Positions 2,551 through 61,292 of a DNA stretch of 61,432 bases are shown here, one piece after another (position 1 is the stretch's first letter; the number at the start of each line of letters is the position of its first letter). Source of the DNA: a virus. Its lineage: Duplodnaviria > Caudoviricetes. Under the pieces are notes generated by a model. The model had not been told where the DNA came from, did not search any database, and was given only the letters and a program-made list of their open reading frames with translations. The stretch spans positions 1-61,432 of the IMG/VR virus record IMGVR_UViG_3300031933_000107, one strand, 5' to 3'. The position numbers were made by a program, and so were the translations under genes.

Positions 2551-3006
2551 ATGGAAGATAAACGATACCCAAGTCATACCCTGGATAAGTTCCAGCTCAG
2601 ATTTCCTGATGGTATGCGCGACCGCATCAAGCAAGCAGCGGAGGAGTCTGGCCGCTCAATGAACGCCGAGATCATCCACCGGCTTGAGCAGAGCTTTGAG
2701 TCTTCTGGTGTTCCGATGGATGAGTTGCCCACGCCTGAGCAAGCTCGGGAGCAGGCTGAAAAAGCACGTGCCTCGCTGCAGGTGCAGTTCAGGAGCTTTA
2801 TCAGAAGGGAGTTGAGATCCGCTATTGAGCGTGGGCTGGACTCAGCGGATATTGATCTTCATGGCTTCTTCGACGTGGAGTCTATGGAAGACGCACCAGC
2901 TGATAAGCTGATCACTGAGGTTATCGATCCGGTGATCAATGAGCTAAGGCAGGCCGGCTACGATCCTAAGGTGCATGATTACAGCCTAGTGATAGTTGAT
3001 TTTTAG
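2551..3006 (+). CDS. Arc/Mnt-family DNA-binding protein with C-terminal extension
   Basis: DKFQLRFPDGMRDRIKQAAEESGRSMNAEIIHRLEQSF is a typical Arc domain; start placed at MEDKR. Confidence 0.88.
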   Translation: MEDKRYPSHTLDKFQLRFPDGMRDRIKQAAEESGRSMNAEIIHRLEQSFESSGVPMDELPTPEQAREQAEKARASLQVQFRSFIRRELRSAIERGLDSADIDLHGFFDVESMEDAPADKLITEVIDPVINELRQAGYDPKVHDYSLVIVDF

Positions 3007-3022
3007 CAGAATCGGCACCCAT

Positions 3023-3051
3023 AAAAAACCCGCCTCAGTGGGCGGGTTCTT
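3023..3051. terminator. Bidirectional terminator
   Basis: A-run, AACCCGCC-loop-GGCGGGTT, T residues; lies between convergent genes. Confidence 0.8.
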
Positions 3052-3055
3052 GATT

Positions 3056-3658
3056 TCAGTTGCACTGCATCATATTACCGACGCTTTGACAGACTCGCCC
3101 ATCTTGCCTGATATGAGTGGGACCAGCACCGTGATTGTACCGTGTACCGTAATTATCCCAGCAACCGCCTGAATCACAGCTGGTAATATGCCCTGGCGCT
3201 CGTGCTGGAGCAGGTGCCGACGTTGGTACTGATGGTGCAGGAGTAGATGTTCCTGATGGAATCCCAGCACAGCGGGATAGGACGTCCCGTTGTGCTGCGG
3301 TTAGTCCGCGCGAACCTTTATGGACAGTCCCGGCTTCCTTGCAGACTCGCTCTCTGGCGGCAGCAGCTATTTTGTCTTGTTCATTTTGTTGTCGCCGTTG
3401 AGCAGCTTCAGCACTTCGTTGGTTTAGAGTTGCTTCTTTTCGGGCTTCCTCCGCCTTTAACTCGGCATAACGTTGCCTGTCTGCAGCAAAACTGGAAGTA
3501 TTTACCTTGGTTTCTCTACGCTGCTCGGCATCATTACCACACGGGGTCCTGGAGAAGGATTTCTTTCCTGTTTCAGGGTCTGTGCAGGTGTAGTAGGTGC
3601 CAGCAAGAGTGGTCGTTGAACAGCTGATTAAGATCAGCAAGGTTGCCATTTTTAGCAT
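3056..3658 (-). CDS. Exported DUF4124-like protein with Cys-rich C-terminus (moron)
   Basis: Signal peptide followed by YTCTDPETGKKSFSRTPC motif. Confidence 0.65.
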   Translation of the reverse strand: MLKMATLLILISCSTTTLAGTYYTCTDPETGKKSFSRTPCGNDAEQRRETKVNTSSFAADRQRYAELKAEEARKEATLNQRSAEAAQRRQQNEQDKIAAAARERVCKEAGTVHKGSRGLTAAQRDVLSRCAGIPSGTSTPAPSVPTSAPAPARAPGHITSCDSGGCWDNYGTRYNHGAGPTHIRQDGRVCQSVGNMMQCN

Positions 3659-27505: not shown

Positions 27506-28741
27506 TTACGGCACAAGCTCAGGCATGGCATTGGCAAAGAAAAGATCGTTTAGCTGTTCGCCATCCTCTGTCATAAACTGAACATCGCAAGGGCTTGCGT
27601 CTGGCAGATCCATTGAATAGTTGCCGGTTGTTGCGTCAGATTCAACTTGTGCCAACAGTACCCCTGTTGCCCTGTCATGCGCCCTGACTGTTCGCTTTGC
27701 GGGATTATTGCTGATGTCGCGCACGGTGCCTGTTAATCGGCCAGTATTCTTCTGCGCGATCGCCATGTGCCCATATCCATCGGGCAATATATCGAACGCA
27801 GGATTAGATGGGTACTGCTCCCATGTTGTTGCATCAAACACATTTAGACCAGCATCCCCATACGATCTATACGCTTTAACCAACAGCTGGTTTGACGCAG
27901 CATCAAAACAGCAGTGCGTTACTTGCCTTGTACCCCAACCATTATATGGCCATATATCCGTCTCGGTGCCTGCCTCATAATCAATCTCACCAACTTGCCT
28001 GCGGCTGCTGCTGGCAGCGCCATACCAATAAACAACTGATTTACTCTTATTCGGGTTGGGTATTATCCCGCCAGCCGTCCTATCAACATAATTGTTATTG
28101 GAATCCGTGTAGGTGTTCACGACTGAAATCGTTGCCGCATCTACCGCCGCTACATAATAAGGATAGCCGTTACCACAACAGAAGATCAGGCTATCATCCG
28201 CTGTAAAGCACACATGATATTTGCCTGCCCCGACATTTCCCGACACGTCAGCATAAGACCAATCATTGGTGTTATACACTCGCAAATACGGGGACGAAGA
28301 ATGTACGACCGCAAGCATTGACCCATCATGGCTGAATGACACACCATAAACAGTCCCCAGCCCTTGCGTGTTAACTGCCTGAACGCTCAGGTCTGCCCAA
28401 GCGTACACCATCAGTTTTGCGCCGCTGGAGCCACCCGTTGCGATTAAATCGTTACTGGCCGTGCATTGGCAAAGATAACCAACACCTGGCGGAACGCTCG
28501 GTGTTGTGTAGGTATTCAGATCTTCAATATCCAAAAAAACTGAAAGATATTGGTAGTTGCTGATTACGCAGCGTGTTGCATCAGGTGTAATGGCAACGAA
28601 TGGTTTGTATCCACTGCTATACGAAAAAATTGGAGATGCTGTTCCAATTACGCTATCAAAAGAAGCGGGGGCGCCATCGAGCAGATTGAATGATGCAGCG
28701 TTAACACCATTTCCCGAGCCTGTATAAATCAGCTTTTTCAT
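27506..28741 (-). CDS. Beta-propeller (WD40/YncE-like) protein with C-terminal adaptor domain; candidate receptor-binding protein
   Basis: VYGVSFSHDGSMLAVVHSSSPYLRVY blades; C-terminal GRLTGTV...RTVRAHDRATG; visibly AT-richer than neighbours. Confidence 0.65.
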   Translation of the reverse strand: MKKLIYTGSGNGVNAASFNLLDGAPASFDSVIGTASPIFSYSSGYKPFVAITPDATRCVISNYQYLSVFLDIEDLNTYTTPSVPPGVGYLCQCTASNDLIATGGSSGAKLMVYAWADLSVQAVNTQGLGTVYGVSFSHDGSMLAVVHSSSPYLRVYNTNDWSYADVSGNVGAGKYHVCFTADDSLIFCCGNGYPYYVAAVDAATISVVNTYTDSNNNYVDRTAGGIIPNPNKSKSVVYWYGAASSSRRQVGEIDYEAGTETDIWPYNGWGTRQVTHCCFDAASNQLLVKAYRSYGDAGLNVFDATTWEQYPSNPAFDILPDGYGHMAIAQKNTGRLTGTVRDISNNPAKRTVRAHDRATGVLLAQVESDATTGNYSMDLPDASPCDVQFMTEDGEQLNDLFFANAMPELVP

Positions 28742-29040
28742 ATCGCTTCACCCATGCAGCTCTCGTTCGGCCAATAGCCTTTATCCGCGTGCCACTGCTT
28801 GTACTTCTCCAGCAGGGTTTCGGCATCCACTTCGCGCACGAACCGCTCGACATACTGGATCGTCCAGCGTTCCGAGTCGCCATCCGGCGGACAGGGGCTG
28901 CGCTCATGGACGAACATCTGGAACGGCGGCAGTGCGGCCAGTGCCCGCCAGTCAATCACCGGTACCGGCTCATTCATGGTCACTGGATTGGCTTCAATGC
29001 CCTGGGCAGAAACTTTGATCGGTGGAGGCTTCTGGCTCAT
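28738..29040 (-). CDS. Hypothetical phage protein
   Basis: 100 aa, ATGA-coupled on both sides. Confidence 0.7.
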
Positions 29041-29711
29041 TCATTCAGCTCCTTAATGCGTTTCTCGACTTTGCGCCTCTCGGCTGGCGTCAGCGAATCC
29101 AGCAGGTCAATCACTTTGTCCACCATCCTGATACCATGCGGGTCTTTCCTGCTTGTCCCGACACCGGTCCAAAGCTCAAGGTTCTCGGGCCGGTTGTCGT
29201 CACGCTTGCCGTTTTTATGGTGGACGCGCTCTGACTTTTTGAGTGGGCGGCCAAGCACTTGCTCCATGACAAGGCGGTGCTCCATGACTTTCTTGCCGTC
29301 ACGCCTTACCATGATGTATCCACCTGTTGATCGGATCTTGTCTGCAACAACTCTGGCATCAAGCGTGATCTCGGGCTTCTTCATCCCCATCCTTCTTGCC
29401 TTACCAGAGCACTTTACAGAGCAATAGGCCCGGGTCTTTCCATGCGGCCTTTCAAACGTGCTGCCACAAACGGCACATACACACGTCTTGTCTTTTGATG
29501 TTCCTTTGGCCTTGCATTGAACGCTGCAGTATTTCTGCTGCGCATACTTTGCCTTGAACTCTATGCCGCAGCATTCGCAGCTCTTCAGGTTTTTTCTTGT
29601 TGTTGCGTACCAGCATTCTTTGCAGCAATAGGATTGCTCAGCTCTCTTGGGCCGAAATACCTTACCGCAATGACTGCACTCTCTATCAGGCAATGAGCGT
29701 AATGCCGCCAT
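29037..29711 (-). CDS. Free-standing HNH homing endonuclease with three N-terminal Cys4 zinc-ribbon repeats
   Basis: [14 protein letters not shown]...[19 protein letters not shown]; three CxxCG..F...YC(S/C)xxC repeats. Confidence 0.92.
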
Positions 29712-29721
29712 AATTGATCCC

Positions 29722-29774
29722 CCTGTGATTCAAAATCTCAGGTAAATTATATCATTCAGCGGCACTACTGTCCC
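29722..29774 (-). promoter_or_regulatory. Sigma70-type promoter and RBS-overlapping hairpin of the HNH gene
   Basis: GGGACA (29769-29774), 17 bp, TATAAT (29746-29751) with extended -10 TG; hairpin CCTGAGATT/AATCACAGG at 29722-29742 overlaps the AGGGGG RBS. Confidence 0.7.
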
Positions 29775-29788
29775 ATGTTAATACACCC

Positions 29789-30489
29789 TCACACCTTGAA
29801 TATTTTATTTGTGCCGTTGTCCCAGGTCACTATGCCGAACGTTCGGAATGGCTCGCTACTTCCATTCCCGCCAATTCCATTTGGCAGCTACATATCGCTA
29901 TGTAGAGCAGACTATCTCTTCAGCCAAGTGCGGCTGCTGTCGCGCGCTTCGGGCCGCTTGGCCCTACTCCCTTTCGGGATAGTCGTTACACCCCGCCCTT
30001 TCGGGCCTGGCACGGTATTGTCTCTGTCGAGATGTTCACCGTTTTCACGCGATCCACCCCCAGCCTCAAAGGCCGCAACGGTCTGGGGGGCACCTTTGTT
30101 TAGTGGTCTTTCTGACCACACGGGGTAATGTCCCCGCCGTTCGGCGTGATAGGAAGGCCGGTAGCCGTGTCGATATAGGCGATCAGCGGGCTGGTACTCT
30201 CGGTACCGGTGTCGGAGTAGATCACGATGGACTCGATACTCGCCCCACTCACGCTGGTGAATGTGCAATCGGCCGCATCGGCAGCGCCGCCGGTAGTTGC
30301 CTTGTTGGTCAGCGTTACCGGGCCTGCAATGCGAGCAGAGGTCGGAATGTCAGATAGGTACTGGTGAACGGCGGTCTGAGGCGTGTAGGCACCGGTATCC
30401 ACCAGAATGCACTTGATGGTATCGGTCATCCAGTTGATCTGCGCCTCAAGGAAGCGCTGGCGTGCAAAGTCGAAAAGGGTATTAGCCAT
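29789..30489 (-). CDS. Intron-split virion protein, join(30489..30128, 29834..29789), 135 aa
   Basis: Exon 1 ends ...GLPITPNGGD plus AT; exon 2 is C plus IVTWDNGTNKIFKV*; the joined end reads NGGDIIVTWDNGTNKIFKV. Confidence 0.88.
29835..30127 (-). ncRNA. Group I self-splicing intron (IA-type, no internal ORF, 293 nt)
   Basis: Exon 1 ends in U and the intron ends in G; R element UGUAACGACUA (29980-29990); S element AAGAGAUAGUC (29910-29920); P3, P4, P5, P6, P7.1, P7.2, P8 and P9 stems can all be drawn. Confidence 0.92.
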
Positions 30490-30561
30490 GTGCGGTATCT
30501 CCTGCCTTTGGCATGGGAATCGGTTACATGGCGCATTGTCGGGTAGGAAATGGCAGCGCAG

Positions 30562-60159: not shown

Positions 60160-61292
60160 ACAGACCAAGAAACAAGCAGAACAAGGATCTGCCCCCGAAT
60201 CTGTACGCAGATCGCCGGGGCCGTATTACCTACTATGCCTACAAGCACCCGGCCACCGGTAAGCGGCACGGCATGGGTGCGAACCGCACTCAAGCAATTT
60301 TGGCGGCCAAGCAGCTCAATACCATGCTGTCGGCAGAGCTATGTCTGGTTGACCGTGTGCTGGGCGGTACCAATACCCTGACACTTTGGATCAAGAAATA
60401 CCTGACTATCCGTGAAGCTGAAAATATCGCCCCGGATACCGTGCGATCACTGAAGGTTAACCTGAAGGCAATAGATGCTCACTTGGGCACTTTGCCCATT
60501 GCGGACCTGTCGGTATTCCATGTTGCTGAGTTCCTGAATAAGTGGACCAGTGAAGGCAAGATGACAACAGCCAAGCATTTACGCAGCACGCTGATCAAGT
60601 GCCTGGACTACGCGATCAGCAACGGCCTGATTGATGACAACGTGGCCAGTAAGACACTACCCATTACCGCCCAGGTTAAGCGCCACCGGCTAACCAAAGA
60701 GCAGTTTGACGCCATCTACAAGCAGGCGCCGATCCATGTGCGCAATGCAATGATGCTTGGGCTTCTGACGCTGCAGCGCCGCGAGGATATCGTCAATATG
60801 AAGTTCACCGATATCCGTGATGGTTATCTGCATGTTGTGCAAAGCAAGACCGCCAAGGCTCGCAATGGTAAGCGTGCCGACTCGCAGAACGTATCCGCGC
60901 ATCTGCGCATTGAAGTAACAGAGCAGCTTGCCGCCGTGATCCAGTCATGCCGCAGTACGCGCATTGTATCGAAGTACCTGGTTCACCAGATCAGGACGCA
61001 GCGCTTTGGTGGTGCCAAGTCTGGCGAAATCCGCAAAGGTGAACAGCTGGATGCCGATGTGATCACCCGGGGCTTTCGCAATGCGAGGGATAAGGCCGGA
61101 CTGTTCAGTGATGTGCCTTCACGCGAACGCCCCAGCTTTCATGAGATACGCGCATTGGGTGCCCACCTATACCGAGATCAAGGCATCAATCCTCAGGCAT
61201 TGCTGGGTCACACAAGCGAGAAAATGACAGCCCTGTATCTGGATGGCCATGGCGAAGAGTGGACCGTGGTACAAGCCAATCTGCAGGTGTGA
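60156..61292 (+). CDS. int: Tyrosine integrase with lambda-like N-terminal arm-binding domain
   Basis: LPPNLY..YY.Y.HP.TGK; TLQRREDI (R), KT, FHEIRAL (HxxR), LLGH, Y. Confidence 0.95.
   Translation: MNRPRNKQNKDLPPNLYADRRGRITYYAYKHPATGKRHGMGANRTQAILAAKQLNTMLSAELCLVDRVLGGTNTLTLWIKKYLTIREAENIAPDTVRSLKVNLKAIDAHLGTLPIADLSVFHVAEFLNKWTSEGKMTTAKHLRSTLIKCLDYAISNGLIDDNVASKTLPITAQVKRHRLTKEQFDAIYKQAPIHVRNAMMLGLLTLQRREDIVNMKFTDIRDGYLHVVQSKTAKARNGKRADSQNVSAHLRIEVTEQLAAVIQSCRSTRIVSKYLVHQIRTQRFGGAKSGEIRKGEQLDADVITRGFRNARDKAGLFSDVPSRERPSFHEIRALGAHLYRDQGINPQALLGHTSEKMTALYLDGHGEEWTVVQANLQV

What the first reader, a model, noticed from the sequence alone, without database searches (positions are those of the whole stretch)
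29789..30489. Hidden ORF-less group I intron splitting a virion gene of a temperate prophage
Seen: the ORF called 30100-30489 ends abruptly (...NGGDI-TPCGQKDH*), and 293 nt further on there is an orphan IVTWDNGTNKIFKV*. Removing 29835-30127 joins GAC AT|C ATA GTG in frame, with U before the 5' site and G at the intron 3' end. The insert has the R and S elements (GACUA 29980-29984 pairing with UAGUC 29910-29914 as P7). It also has P3 (30046-30052 with 29940-29947), P4, P5, P6, P7.1 (29968-29979), P7.2 (29951-29964), P8 (29921-29936) and P9 (29888-29905). Established: these are group I hallmarks, P7.1/P7.2 indicate subgroup IA, and the classic phage examples sit in DNA-metabolism genes of lytic phages. 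Inference: an intact ribozyme whose splicing is needed to make the full 135-aa structural protein; automated annotation would report a truncated gene.
Basis: partly seen in the sequence, partly recalled or inferred. Interest (0 to 1): 0.9.

Follow-up and report, generated by a model that had tools for sequence, protein, structure and literature searches.

The report
Hidden self-splicing intron in phage tail gene
A 293-base group I intron with no gene of its own interrupts a small tail-protein gene of a temperate phage, next to a free-standing homing endonuclease gene; it is a real but fairly ordinary mobile intron that gene callers misread as a truncated gene.

Summary
On the minus strand, window 30127..29835 is a 293-nt insert. 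Removing it joins GAC AU|C AUA and gives a 135-aa protein whose tail (...NGGDIIVTWDNGTNKIFKV) matches intronless homologues.

Rfam's group I model hits it at 42.1 bits, below the cut-off of 50. Three diverged copies at the same site score 50.5, 52.7 and 62.2. Across the four variants, 19 of 78 proposed pairs show compensatory changes, against 6.9 +/- 1.9 in shuffles and 0-4 in slid controls.

I add:
- the guide sequence at intron nt 30-37, with a P10 covariation;
- a conserved exon-intron hairpin that holds the 5' splice site in its loop, which I cannot explain;
- a free-standing HNH endonuclease gene (29711..29037) directly downstream. It is present in 6 of 6 intron-bearing contigs and 6 of 79 intronless ones.

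The host gene is homologous to Bxb1 gp31, "tail wing arm". The record is a viral contig with an integrase, not a demonstrated prophage.

Splicing itself is not shown. This is a new member of a known kind.

The parts
30128..30489 (-). Exon 1 of the tail-wing-arm-like gene. It covers codons 1-120 plus the first two bases of codon 121 and ends ...GGG GAC AU.
   Evidence: Homologues match residues 1-121 and diverge exactly there. DNA homology between L077 (intron-bearing) and L002 (intronless) stops at this base.
29835..30127 (-). ORF-less group I intron, 293 nt, IA-type. The first nt is U (30127) and the last is omega-G (29835).
   Evidence: RF00028 scores 42.1 bits, E 6e-9. Copies at the same site score 50.5-62.2 bits. 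19 of 78 pairs are compensatory across 4 variants.
30100..30127 (-). Read-through of exon 1 into the intron (TPCGQKDH). The in-frame stop UAA is at 30102..30100, intron nt 26-28.
   Evidence: In-frame stops early in phage introns are discussed in the PMC3984707 passage.
30121..30136 (-). Exon-intron hairpin. Exon -9..-5 (CGGGG, 30136..30132) pairs with intron nt 3-7 (CCCCG, 30125..30121). The 5' splice site lies in its 6-nt loop.
   Evidence: It appears in the MFE fold. It is 5 of 5 paired in 4 variants with one compensatory change, C-G to U-A in L239. Its function is unexplained.
30103..30119 (-). Hairpin inside the P1 loop, intron nt 9-25 (GUGGUC/GACCAC).
   Evidence: Each of the 4 variants folds a different 5-8 bp hairpin at this place, -8.2 to -9.2 kcal/mol.
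30091..30098 (-). Internal guide sequence, intron nt 30-37 (CAAAGGUG). GUG pairs with exon-1 CAU with U.G at the splice site (P1). CAAAG faces exon-2 CAUAG (P10), 3 of 5 paired in the window.
   Evidence: In L082, L111 and L239 the 8-mer is fully complementary to the ligated exons, and it is the only zero-mismatch window in each intron. P10 pair G34:C+1 becomes A34:U+1 in L239. Relatives in other genes carry their guide at the homologous place (my reading).
30057..30089 (-). P2, nt 39-45 paired with nt 65-71.
   Evidence: 5 of 7 pairs have compensatory changes.
29940..30052 (-). P3 (nt 76-82 / 182-188). It encloses P4 (86-91/111-116), P5 (96-99/104-107), P6/P6a (117-138), the P7 5' strand GACUA (144-148), P7.1 (149-160) and P7.2 (164-177).
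   Evidence: Rfam alignment. RNAalifold recovers these helices de novo.
29910..29939 (-). P8 (nt 189-193 / 203-207; the window also allows the register 192-196 / 203-207), J8/7, and the P7 3' strand UAGUC (214-218).
   Evidence: P7 is invariant, so it is uninformative. The window has an A.G at 193:203.
29845..29905 (-). P9 (nt 223-240, GCGA loop), P9.1 (243-258) and P9.2 (260-283).
   Evidence: Compensatory pairs are 3 of 7, 2 of 3 and 3 of 7 respectively.
29789..29834 (-). Exon 2: C AUA GUG ... = (I)IVTWDNGTNKIFKV, with stop UGA at 29791..29789.
   Evidence: The tail is identical in intronless homologues.
29746..29774 (-). Promoter-like site (GGGACA-17-TATAAT with TG) in front of the HNH gene.
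   Evidence: This is weak: 2 sites were found against 1.4 +/- 1.1 in shuffles.
29037..29711 (-). Free-standing HNH endonuclease gene, 224 aa. It has three Cys-rich repeats followed by the HNH motif.
   Evidence: Pfam HNH_3 at 2.1e-10 and PHROG HNH families. A homologue sits directly after exon 2 in 6 of 6 intron-bearing contigs, and in 6 of 79 intronless loci.

Best explanation
Window 30127..29835 (minus strand) is a genuine ORF-less group I intron of the IA type. It sits inside the most conserved motif (PNGGDI|IVTWDNG) of a 135-codon tail accessory gene in a temperate-type tailed phage.

**Proposed working**
1. The late transcript carries exon 1, the intron, exon 2 and the HNH gene.
2. A ribosome on exon 1 stops at the in-frame UAA, 8 codons into the intron.
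3. The RNA folds into the group I core: P3-P8 with the P3/P7 pseudoknot, P7.1/P7.2, P9, P9.1 and P9.2.
4. The guide sequence at nt 30-37 pairs its GUG with the last exon-1 bases CAU, with U.G at the cleavage site.
5. A free guanosine bound in P7 attacks after U30128.
6. The terminal G29835 then takes the guanosine site, the CAAAG part of the guide holds exon 2 (P10), and the exons are ligated to GAC AUC AUA GUG.
7. This restores the full protein.

**Mobility**
The HNH endonuclease gene just downstream is most likely a free-standing homing endonuclease. I propose it cuts intronless alleles at or near this site, so that intron and endonuclease gene spread together (collaborative homing), while the intron protects its own genome.

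**Shown and inferred**
- Shown: the boundaries, the fold with covariation, the restored ORF, the intron-HNH association and the mosaic distribution.
- Inferred: catalysis in vivo, the endonuclease target, and the role of translation.
For: **Restored gene**
- The joined exons give the tail found in intronless homologues.
- The motif across the junction is conserved as far as Bxb1 gp31: PNGSDIRVIW against PNGGDIIVTW.

**RNA family**
- RF00028 scores 42.1 bits for the window.
- It scores 50.5 for L082, 52.7 for L111 and 62.2 for L239 at the same site.
- The core is similar to introns in phage DNA-polymerase genes.

**Structure**
- RNAalifold recovers the core de novo from 10 ORF-less relatives, with 14 of 37 pairs compensatory.
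- On the 4 same-site variants, 98.7% of cells are paired.
- 19 of 78 pairs changed on both sides, against 6.9 +/- 1.9 in shuffles (0 of 500 reach the observed value) and 0-4 in slid controls.

**Guide sequence**
- In 3 of 4 variants a unique 8-mer fully complements the ligated exons.
- P10 covaries once: G:C to A:U.
- Relatives inserted in portal and capsid-like genes carry guides matched to their own exons at the same place (my reading).
- U precedes the 5' site and G ends the intron in 4 of 4 variants.

**Persistence**
- Near-identical copies occur in other samples: L083 and L143 at 99.8%.
- A 2025 wastewater contig covers the intron and the HNH gene.

**Mobility**
- HNH is present in 6 of 6 intron-bearing contigs and in 6 of 79 intronless loci.
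- L077 and L002 share a 93-97% identical backbone up to exactly the 5' splice site, and only L077 has the intron.
- L077 and the window share the gene-intron-HNH block at 96.6%, but their backbones are about 77% identical or unalignable.
- The wastewater contig's 10 listed differences all lie in exon 1 between 30186 and 30298. None lies in the intron.
- Collaborative homing is an established mechanism (PMC3984707 passage; PMC2790892 title and abstract start).
Against: - No RNA evidence of splicing exists. The one exact exon-exon joint (run X16, depth 6, 23 letters on the shorter side) is in a library flagged 'probably DNA'. Intronless alleles are common, so it cannot be told from an intronless phage.
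- The window's copy is the weakest of the four. It is below Rfam's gathering score, has two A.A mismatches in P10 and one A.G in P8.
- P1 as modelled is only 3 bp (CAU/GUG) and invariant, so it has no covariation support of its own.
- The same CAU sits in the loop of a conserved, covarying exon-intron hairpin, which competes with P1 or must be reconciled with it.
- Covariation rests on 4 related sequences, and I derived the structure from them. That inflates the percentage paired (tool caveat).
- The endonuclease's target is unknown.
- Eight distinct intronless contigs carry an HNH homologue (six; two more, L225 and L226), so HNH can persist without the intron.
- HNH identity is lower in the intronless loci (48-63%) than in the intron-bearing ones (65-99%).
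Confidence: 0.8

Rival explanations
1. Decaying intron. The insert is a true group I intron by descent, but this copy no longer splices or splices poorly. The phage would then make the truncated 129-aa protein, or none, because the tail-wing arm is dispensable.
For: - The window scores 42.1 bits, against 50.5-62.2 for the other three variants.
- P10 is 3 of 5 paired and P8 has one A.G only in the window.
- In Bxb1 the gp30-dependent wing proteins sit on a non-essential appendage. The gp30 deletion is viable, and relatives lack the homologues of genes 30, 31 and 33 (PMC12646305 passages).
Against: - All core helices are intact and 98.7% of cells are paired.
- Exon 2 is kept in frame, with a tail identical to intronless homologues.
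- Almost the same copy occurs in several independent samples.
- P10 is not essential for group I splicing (my knowledge, not tested here).
Confidence: 0.1
2. The intron is real and splices, but the neighbouring HNH gene has nothing to do with it. It would be an independent free-standing endonuclease, or one with another role, that happens to occupy the next intergenic slot. The intron would then be inherited vertically or moved by ordinary recombination.
For: - Eight intronless contigs carry an HNH homologue in the same slot.
- L188 and L240 have other introns in this gene and no HNH homologue.
- No target-site data exist.
Against: - The association is 6 of 6 against 6 of 79. My hypergeometric estimate for 4 independent variants is about 1e-4. 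The loci are not phylogenetically independent.
- The gene-intron-HNH block is shared at 96.6% between backbones that are otherwise about 77% identical or unalignable.
- Homology between intron-bearing and intronless relatives breaks exactly at the insertion site.
Confidence: 0.2
3. Not an intron at all. The insert would be an assembly chimera, a recombination scar, or an alternative C-terminus with a chance downstream peptide.
For: No hit at Rfam's gathering threshold in the window.
Against: - The same architecture occurs in 6 contigs from different samples.
- The covariance-model hits, the compensatory changes and the exact restoration of a conserved motif all argue against it.
Confidence: 0.02

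Closest known systems
Group I (IA2-type) introns in DNA-polymerase genes of T7-like phages. Database matches include Klebsiella phage IME184, Pectobacterium phages, Xanthomonas CP1 and Ralstonia BOESR1. The Pf-WMP3 intron is called IA2 in the abstract of PMC3428280.
   Same: The catalytic core sequence is shared. 44 nt match Pectobacterium phages at 97.7%, and nt 81-241 match IME184 at 82.5%. A 28-nt core stretch is identical in 54 IMG/VR contigs. P7.1 and P7.2 are present.
   Different: - The host gene is a tail accessory gene, not a replication gene.
- The intron has no internal ORF, whereas many relatives carry an ORF in the P6 loop.
- It has a long P1 loop with its own hairpin, and the guide sequence lies 30 nt into the intron.
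Collaborative homing: an ORF-less intron plus a free-standing endonuclease. Examples are the T4 nrdB intron with MobE, and the cyanophage S-PM2 psbA intron with F-CphI.
   Same: An ORF-less intron lies next to a free-standing HNH gene. The distribution is sporadic and mosaic, and homology breaks at the insertion site. The mechanism is as described in the PMC3984707 passage, the PMC2790892 title and abstract start, and the PMC6083498 abstract start.
   Different: The endonuclease's cleavage site is untested here. The HNH gene lies downstream of the whole interrupted gene, in a virion module of a temperate-type phage.
Staphylococcus phage Twort orf142, a small structural gene with three group I introns.
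   Same: A small virion gene of about 140 codons is invaded repeatedly. Here relatives carry introns at other sites in the last ~15 codons (L188, L240). Twort orf142 encodes a tail tube protein according to the discussion of PMC11878797. The figure of three introns is my recollection.
   Different: - The hosts are Gram-negative-type, as judged by the named relatives.
- The window itself has only one intron.
- The protein family differs (Bxb1 gp31-like).

Membership tests
Group I intron (Rfam RF00028) | Covariance-model score at or above the curated gathering score of 50 bits | tested here: inconclusive
   The window scores 42.1 bits, E 6e-9. That is below the cut-off, and there was no hit at gathering. 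Orthologous copies at the same site score 50.5, 52.7 and 62.2 bits.
Group I intron | Conserved core of P3-P8 with the P3/P7 pseudoknot, plus P4-P6 and P9 | tested here: met
   The Rfam alignment places P3, P4, P5, P6, P8 and P9 and the GACUA/UAGUC strands. RNAalifold recovers the core de novo. P7 and P7.1 are invariant and therefore uninformative.
Group I intron | U at the end of the 5' exon paired with G of an internal guide sequence (P1), with the guide also pairing the 3' exon (P10) | tested here: met
   U30128 pairs with G35. The guide 8-mer fully complements the ligated exons in 3 of 4 variants. One P10 pair covaries. P1 itself is 3 bp and invariant, and it competes with an exon-intron hairpin, so this is met only as a model.
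Group I intron | Terminal G (omega-G) at the 3' end of the intron | tested here: met
   G at 29835. G is present in 4 of 4 variants.
Group I intron | Guanosine-binding G-C pair in P7 next to a bulged nucleotide | tested here: met
   G144-C218 follows an unpaired C143 in the sequence. That this arrangement is the G site is recalled knowledge, not a tool result.
Group I intron | Precise excision restores the host reading frame | tested here: met
   An exact joined form exists in a public run, but its nature as DNA or RNA is unknown.
Group I intron | GTP-dependent self-splicing | not testable with these tools
   Needs an in vitro or in vivo RNA assay.
Subgroup IA | Extra helices P7.1 and P7.2 between P7 and P3' | tested here: met
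   The helices are at nt 149-160 and 164-177. P7.2 has 2 compensatory pairs. The criterion comes from the PMC3984707 passage. Assignment to IA2 rather than IA1 or IA3 was not tested.
Collaborative homing pair (ORF-less intron plus free-standing homing endonuclease) | A free-standing endonuclease gene adjacent to an ORF-less intron, with both sporadically distributed | tested here: met
Collaborative homing pair | The endonuclease cuts intronless alleles at the intron insertion site, and the intron disrupts the target | not testable with these tools
   Needs a cleavage assay on intronless alleles such as the L002 type.

The most novel reading that the evidence does not exclude
The conserved, covarying exon-intron hairpin (exon -9..-5 with intron nt 3-7) is functional, not an accident. 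The 5' splice site would be presented from the loop of this hairpin to a remote 3-bp guide (nt 35-37). One way is as an H-type pseudoknot that stands in for a normal P1. The other is as a switch that masks the site until the ribosome on exon 1 has melted the hairpin. Splicing of a late virion gene would then be gated by its own translation. As far as I know, such a P1 arrangement has not been described for group I introns.
Probability: 0.15. Interest if true: 0.65.

Novelty: new member of a known kind. Interest (0 to 1): 0.5.

Why it matters
**Annotation**
- Gene callers report this tail gene with false C-termini.
- Among the 32 database homologues I inspected, 13 have read-through tails from this site and 9 from a second site five codons on. 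I chose those 32 for odd length.
- Proteome and structure work on these phages would therefore start from wrong sequences.

**Biology**
- The finding extends the T7-like DNA-polymerase intron family into virion genes (tail wing arm, portal, capsid-like) of temperate-type phages. By their named relatives these phages infect Pseudomonas and Acinetobacter.
- The field's own summary is that phage introns favour nucleotide and DNA metabolism genes (PMC11878797 discussion).

**Experimental value**
- It offers a compact natural system for collaborative homing: intron-bearing and intronless alleles in near-identical backbones, with and without the HNH gene.
- It also offers an unusual 5' splice-site context that can be tested by compensatory mutation.

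Tried and rejected
**Rfam at gathering.** One search gave no hit in the window. I did not treat this as refutation once the E-value run and the orthologous copies were in hand.

**P1 models rejected**
- The hairpin CGGGG/CCCCG as P1. The cleavage site would lie in the loop and there would be no U.G pair.
- U(-1).G7 with ACAU/GUGU. It pairs only in the window and fails in L082, L111 and L239.

**P8 register.** Only the second fits the other three variants.

**Pattern scans for more copies**
- Metagenome scan: 29 stretches, of which only L143 is a true copy by blastn.
- Genome scan: 15 stretches, none true.
- Searches also returned chance hits (L084, L085, L182).
- No record of the 50,697 GenBank phage records covers 80% or more of the intron.

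**Read laying.** It gives no verdict on splicing. All runs were contigs. The RNA-labelled runs X16 and X17 are flagged 'probably DNA', and X18 covers only the conserved core. Parts without cover mean nothing.

**Alignment artefacts.** MAFFT misaligned the P1-loop hairpin, and P6a in L239. I left the hairpin out of the count and folded it per sequence instead. The three gap cells in P6a come from this.

**Promoter scan.** Not above shuffles.

**Literature**
- 'group I intron' + 'F116' gave 1 irrelevant paper.
- 'group I intron' with prophage, Pseudomonas, HNH and structural gene gave no report of this intron in the listed titles and abstract starts.
- 'group I intron' with portal, capsid, tail and prophage gave none either.
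- Only 12 of 101 and 12 of 567 hits were listed, so an existing report cannot be excluded.
- Supplementary Table S1 of PMC11878797, a list of split phage genes, could bear on novelty. Supplements were closed.

**Closed or unused tools.** I did not use the look-up of encoding contigs, which is declared closed, so I could not fetch the ENA and Logan contigs behind most intron-bearing protein hits. I did not build my own covariance model, fold the protein, or run complex prediction.
Full report
**What is there**

The window is a whole viral record of 61,432 nt, about 97% complete by CheckV. It has a tyrosine integrase at 60687-61244 and no tRNA genes.

On the minus strand, an ORF runs 30489..30100 and ends ...PITPNGGDITPCGQKDH*. 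The peptide IVTWDNGTNKIFKV* lies 293 nt downstream. Removing 30127..29835 joins GAC AU|C AUA GUG. The translated product is 135 aa.

A protein search returned 3,639 relatives, of which the best 120 were listed. The common form is 135 aa and ends ...NGGDIIVTWDNGTNKIFKV, exactly like the joined product. All matches to the window's 129-aa ORF stop at residue 121, which is the splice point.

**It is a group I intron**

- At gathering thresholds Rfam finds nothing in the window.
- In an E-value run, RF00028 aligns end to end with 29888-30164(-) at 42.1 bits, E 6e-9. It places P3, P4, P5, P6, P8 and P9 and the conserved GACUA/UAGUC strands.
- It is the only such match in the record.
- Three diverged copies at the same codon score 50.5 bits (L082, 82% identical), 52.7 bits (L111, 76%) and 62.2 bits (L239, low G+C), against a cut-off of 50.
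- The core resembles introns in DNA-polymerase genes of T7-like and other phages.
- One 28-nt core stretch is identical in 54 IMG/VR contigs.

RNAalifold on 10 ORF-less family members predicts P3, P4, P5, P6, P6a, P7.1, P7.2 and P9 without guidance. 14 of 37 pairs keep pairing through double changes.

I wrote a full structure of 78 pairs in 16 helices for the four same-site variants and counted pairs:
- 98.7% of cells pair.
- 19 pairs changed on both sides.
- Shuffles give 6.9 +/- 1.9, and 0 of 500 reach the observed value.
- Slid controls give 0-4.

The structure was derived from these four related sequences, so the percentage paired is flattering. The double changes in P2 (5 of 7), P7.2, P9, P9.1 and P9.2 are the real evidence.

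**Splice-site recognition**

The last exon bases sit in the loop of a stable hairpin, exon CGGGG with intron nt 3-7 CCCCG. That cannot be a working P1.

Three observations place the guide sequence at intron nt 30-37:
- In L082, L111 and L239 an 8-mer there (CAAUGGUG, CAAUGGUG, CAAUAGUG) is the only window in each intron that fully complements the ligated exons (CAU|CAUUG, CAU|CAUUG, CAU|UAUUG), with G opposite the splice-site U.
- In L239 exon 2 starts with U instead of C, and the facing guide base is A instead of G. This is a compensatory change in P10.
- ORF-less relatives inserted in other genes carry guides matched to their own exons at the homologous place, just 5' of P2/P3. Examples are CGACAU/GUGUCG in the portal-gene introns L096 and L118, ACAUCUU/GAGAUGU in L132 whose site is shifted 3 nt, and GGAGAU/GUCUCC in L099. 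I read these from the sequences, and their junctions are inferred from reading frames only.

In the window the guide is CAAAGGUG. P1 (CAU/GUG with U.G) is intact, but P10 has two A.A mismatches.

The exon-intron hairpin is itself conserved and covaries once (C-G to U-A in L239). All four intron-bearing variants use a GGG glycine codon that pairs with the intron, whereas most intronless alleles use GGC or GGT. I cannot decide among three readings:
- a competing conformer that masks the site;
- a pseudoknotted extension of P1;
- a by-product of co-converted exon flanks.

**Host gene**

- The spliced protein matches PDB 9d93, 'Tail wing arm, gp31', at E 2.2e-14. The alignment runs through the junction motif: PNGSDIRVIW in gp31, PNGGDIIVTW here.
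- In Bxb1, gp31 is a tail-tip wing component that depends on gp30 (PMC12646305 passages).
- Pfam finds no family for the window's 129-aa ORF, and PHROGs place the 135-aa homologue P0001 in phrog_644, function unknown.
- The upstream gene is a SU10-type adaptor. Other neighbours are structural-module ORFs.
- Named relatives are Pseudomonas phages such as PA8, phiC725A and vB_PaeP_E220, and Acinetobacter prophage proteins. That these are F116-like temperate podoviruses is my recollection.

**The neighbouring endonuclease and mobility**

A 224-aa HNH_3 protein gene starts 77 nt after exon 2, at 29711..29037. A homologue follows exon 2 in all 6 contigs that carry this intron. Those contigs are the window, the contig behind L077/L083/L192, L143, L082/L221, L111 and L239. 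The L111 and L239 homologues are cut by the locus end.

Only 6 of the 79 intronless loci have a homologue (L002, L009, L011, L013, L016, L060). Two further intronless contigs with one turned up (L225, L226).

Three mosaic patterns point to transfer of the block:
- L077 (intron-bearing) and L002 (intronless) are 93-97% identical over 3.3 kb upstream. Their homology ends exactly at the 5' splice site.
- L077 and the window share the gene-intron-HNH block at 96.6%, while their upstream backbones are about 77% identical or unalignable.
- A 2025 wastewater contig covers 29400-30491 with 12 differences. The 10 listed ones all lie in exon 1 between 30186 and 30298, and none lies in the intron.

This is the pattern expected of a homing cassette with short co-conversion tracts. 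It matches the 'collaborative homing' arrangement of an ORF-less intron with a free-standing endonuclease (PMC3984707 passage; PMC2790892). The target of the enzyme is untested.

**Is it spliced?**

This is not shown. One contig in a wastewater library labelled RNA-Seq, but flagged 'probably DNA', joins 30128 directly to 29834, skipping exactly 293 nt. Since intronless alleles are common, this proves only that the joined form exists.

The window's copy is the least canonical of the four: lowest Rfam score, a weak P10, and one A.G in P8. The case for function rests on four points:
- an intact core;
- an intact in-frame exon 2;
- recurrence of nearly the same copy in several samples;
- an in-frame stop 8 codons into the intron, as in other phage introns.

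**How new is it?**

Group I introns in phage genes, ORF-less introns beside free-standing endonucleases, and repeated invasion of a small structural gene (Twort orf142) are all known. The discussion of PMC11878797 notes that most split phage genes are in nucleotide and DNA metabolism. A tail-wing gene is therefore an unusual but not unprecedented host.

I found no report of this intron (listings only). No GenBank phage record contains it. I file it as a new member of a known kind.

The unusual 5' splice-site context and the density of different introns in the last ~15 codons of this gene in relatives (L188, L240) are the parts most worth following.

Noticed in passing
L188:2879-3228 (+); also protein tails P0004, P0005, P0031, P0036, P0058, P0076, P0079, P0108, P0112: A second, different group I intron (RF00028, 67.3 bits) sits five codons downstream in the same gene, between TGGGAU and AAUGG (D|N). 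Nine of the 32 homologues I viewed have read-through tails starting after ...IIVTWD. No HNH homologue lies downstream in L188.
   Followed up: partly
L240:2837-3555 (+): One relative has two group I introns in this gene: 2912-3223 (Rfam hit 83.2 bits) and 3248-3555 (88.2 bits). They are separated by a 24-nt mini-exon (IIVTWDNG). There is also an unexplained 51-nt in-frame insertion ending in TGA (2837-2887) after ...TATGL. The first intron's site is 2 nt upstream of the window's site.
   Followed up: partly
L091, L096, L118, L132 (portal-like gene); L099 (capsid-like gene); L086-L137 generally: The same intron family (28-nt identical core, 54 IMG/VR contigs) also interrupts portal-like genes (...EWLLDI | FNGGRTDSG...) and a capsid-like gene (...KALEI | LENNLV...). 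Many members carry an ORF that runs into the 3' side of P6. L096 has an ORF with repeated GNPxxGK-like motifs just upstream of the split portal gene.
   Followed up: partly
window 30121-30136 (-) and the same place in L082, L111, L239: A conserved, once-covarying hairpin between exon 1 and intron nt 3-7 encloses the 5' splice site in its loop. All intron-bearing alleles use a GGG Gly codon there, while most intronless alleles use GGC or GGT.
   Followed up: partly
window 29400-30491 against run X3: A 2025 wastewater contig (8.7 kb, depth about 980) is identical through the HNH gene and intron. It differs at 10 listed sites, all clustered in exon 1 (30186-30298). This looks like a recombination or co-conversion boundary.
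   Followed up: no
window 60687-61244 (+): A tyrosine integrase (PF00589, 51.3 bits) in a 409-aa frame lies at the very end of the record. This is consistent with a temperate phage or an excised prophage end.
   Followed up: no
window 27506-28741 (-): A 411-aa ORF two genes downstream has only weak beta-propeller Pfam hits (E about 1e-3) and a weak match to a large PHROG of unknown function. It may be a tail fibre or receptor-binding candidate.
   Followed up: no
L188:820-904 (+): An Rfam sRNA-Xcc1 (RF02221) hit at 69.8 bits, above its cut-off of 53, lies upstream of the tail gene in a relative.
   Followed up: no
L240:3719-4156 (+): A 145-aa ORF right after the split gene looks like a distant paralogue of the same tail-wing-arm family (...SFPCVSGNDITGILIYQD...).
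   Followed up: no
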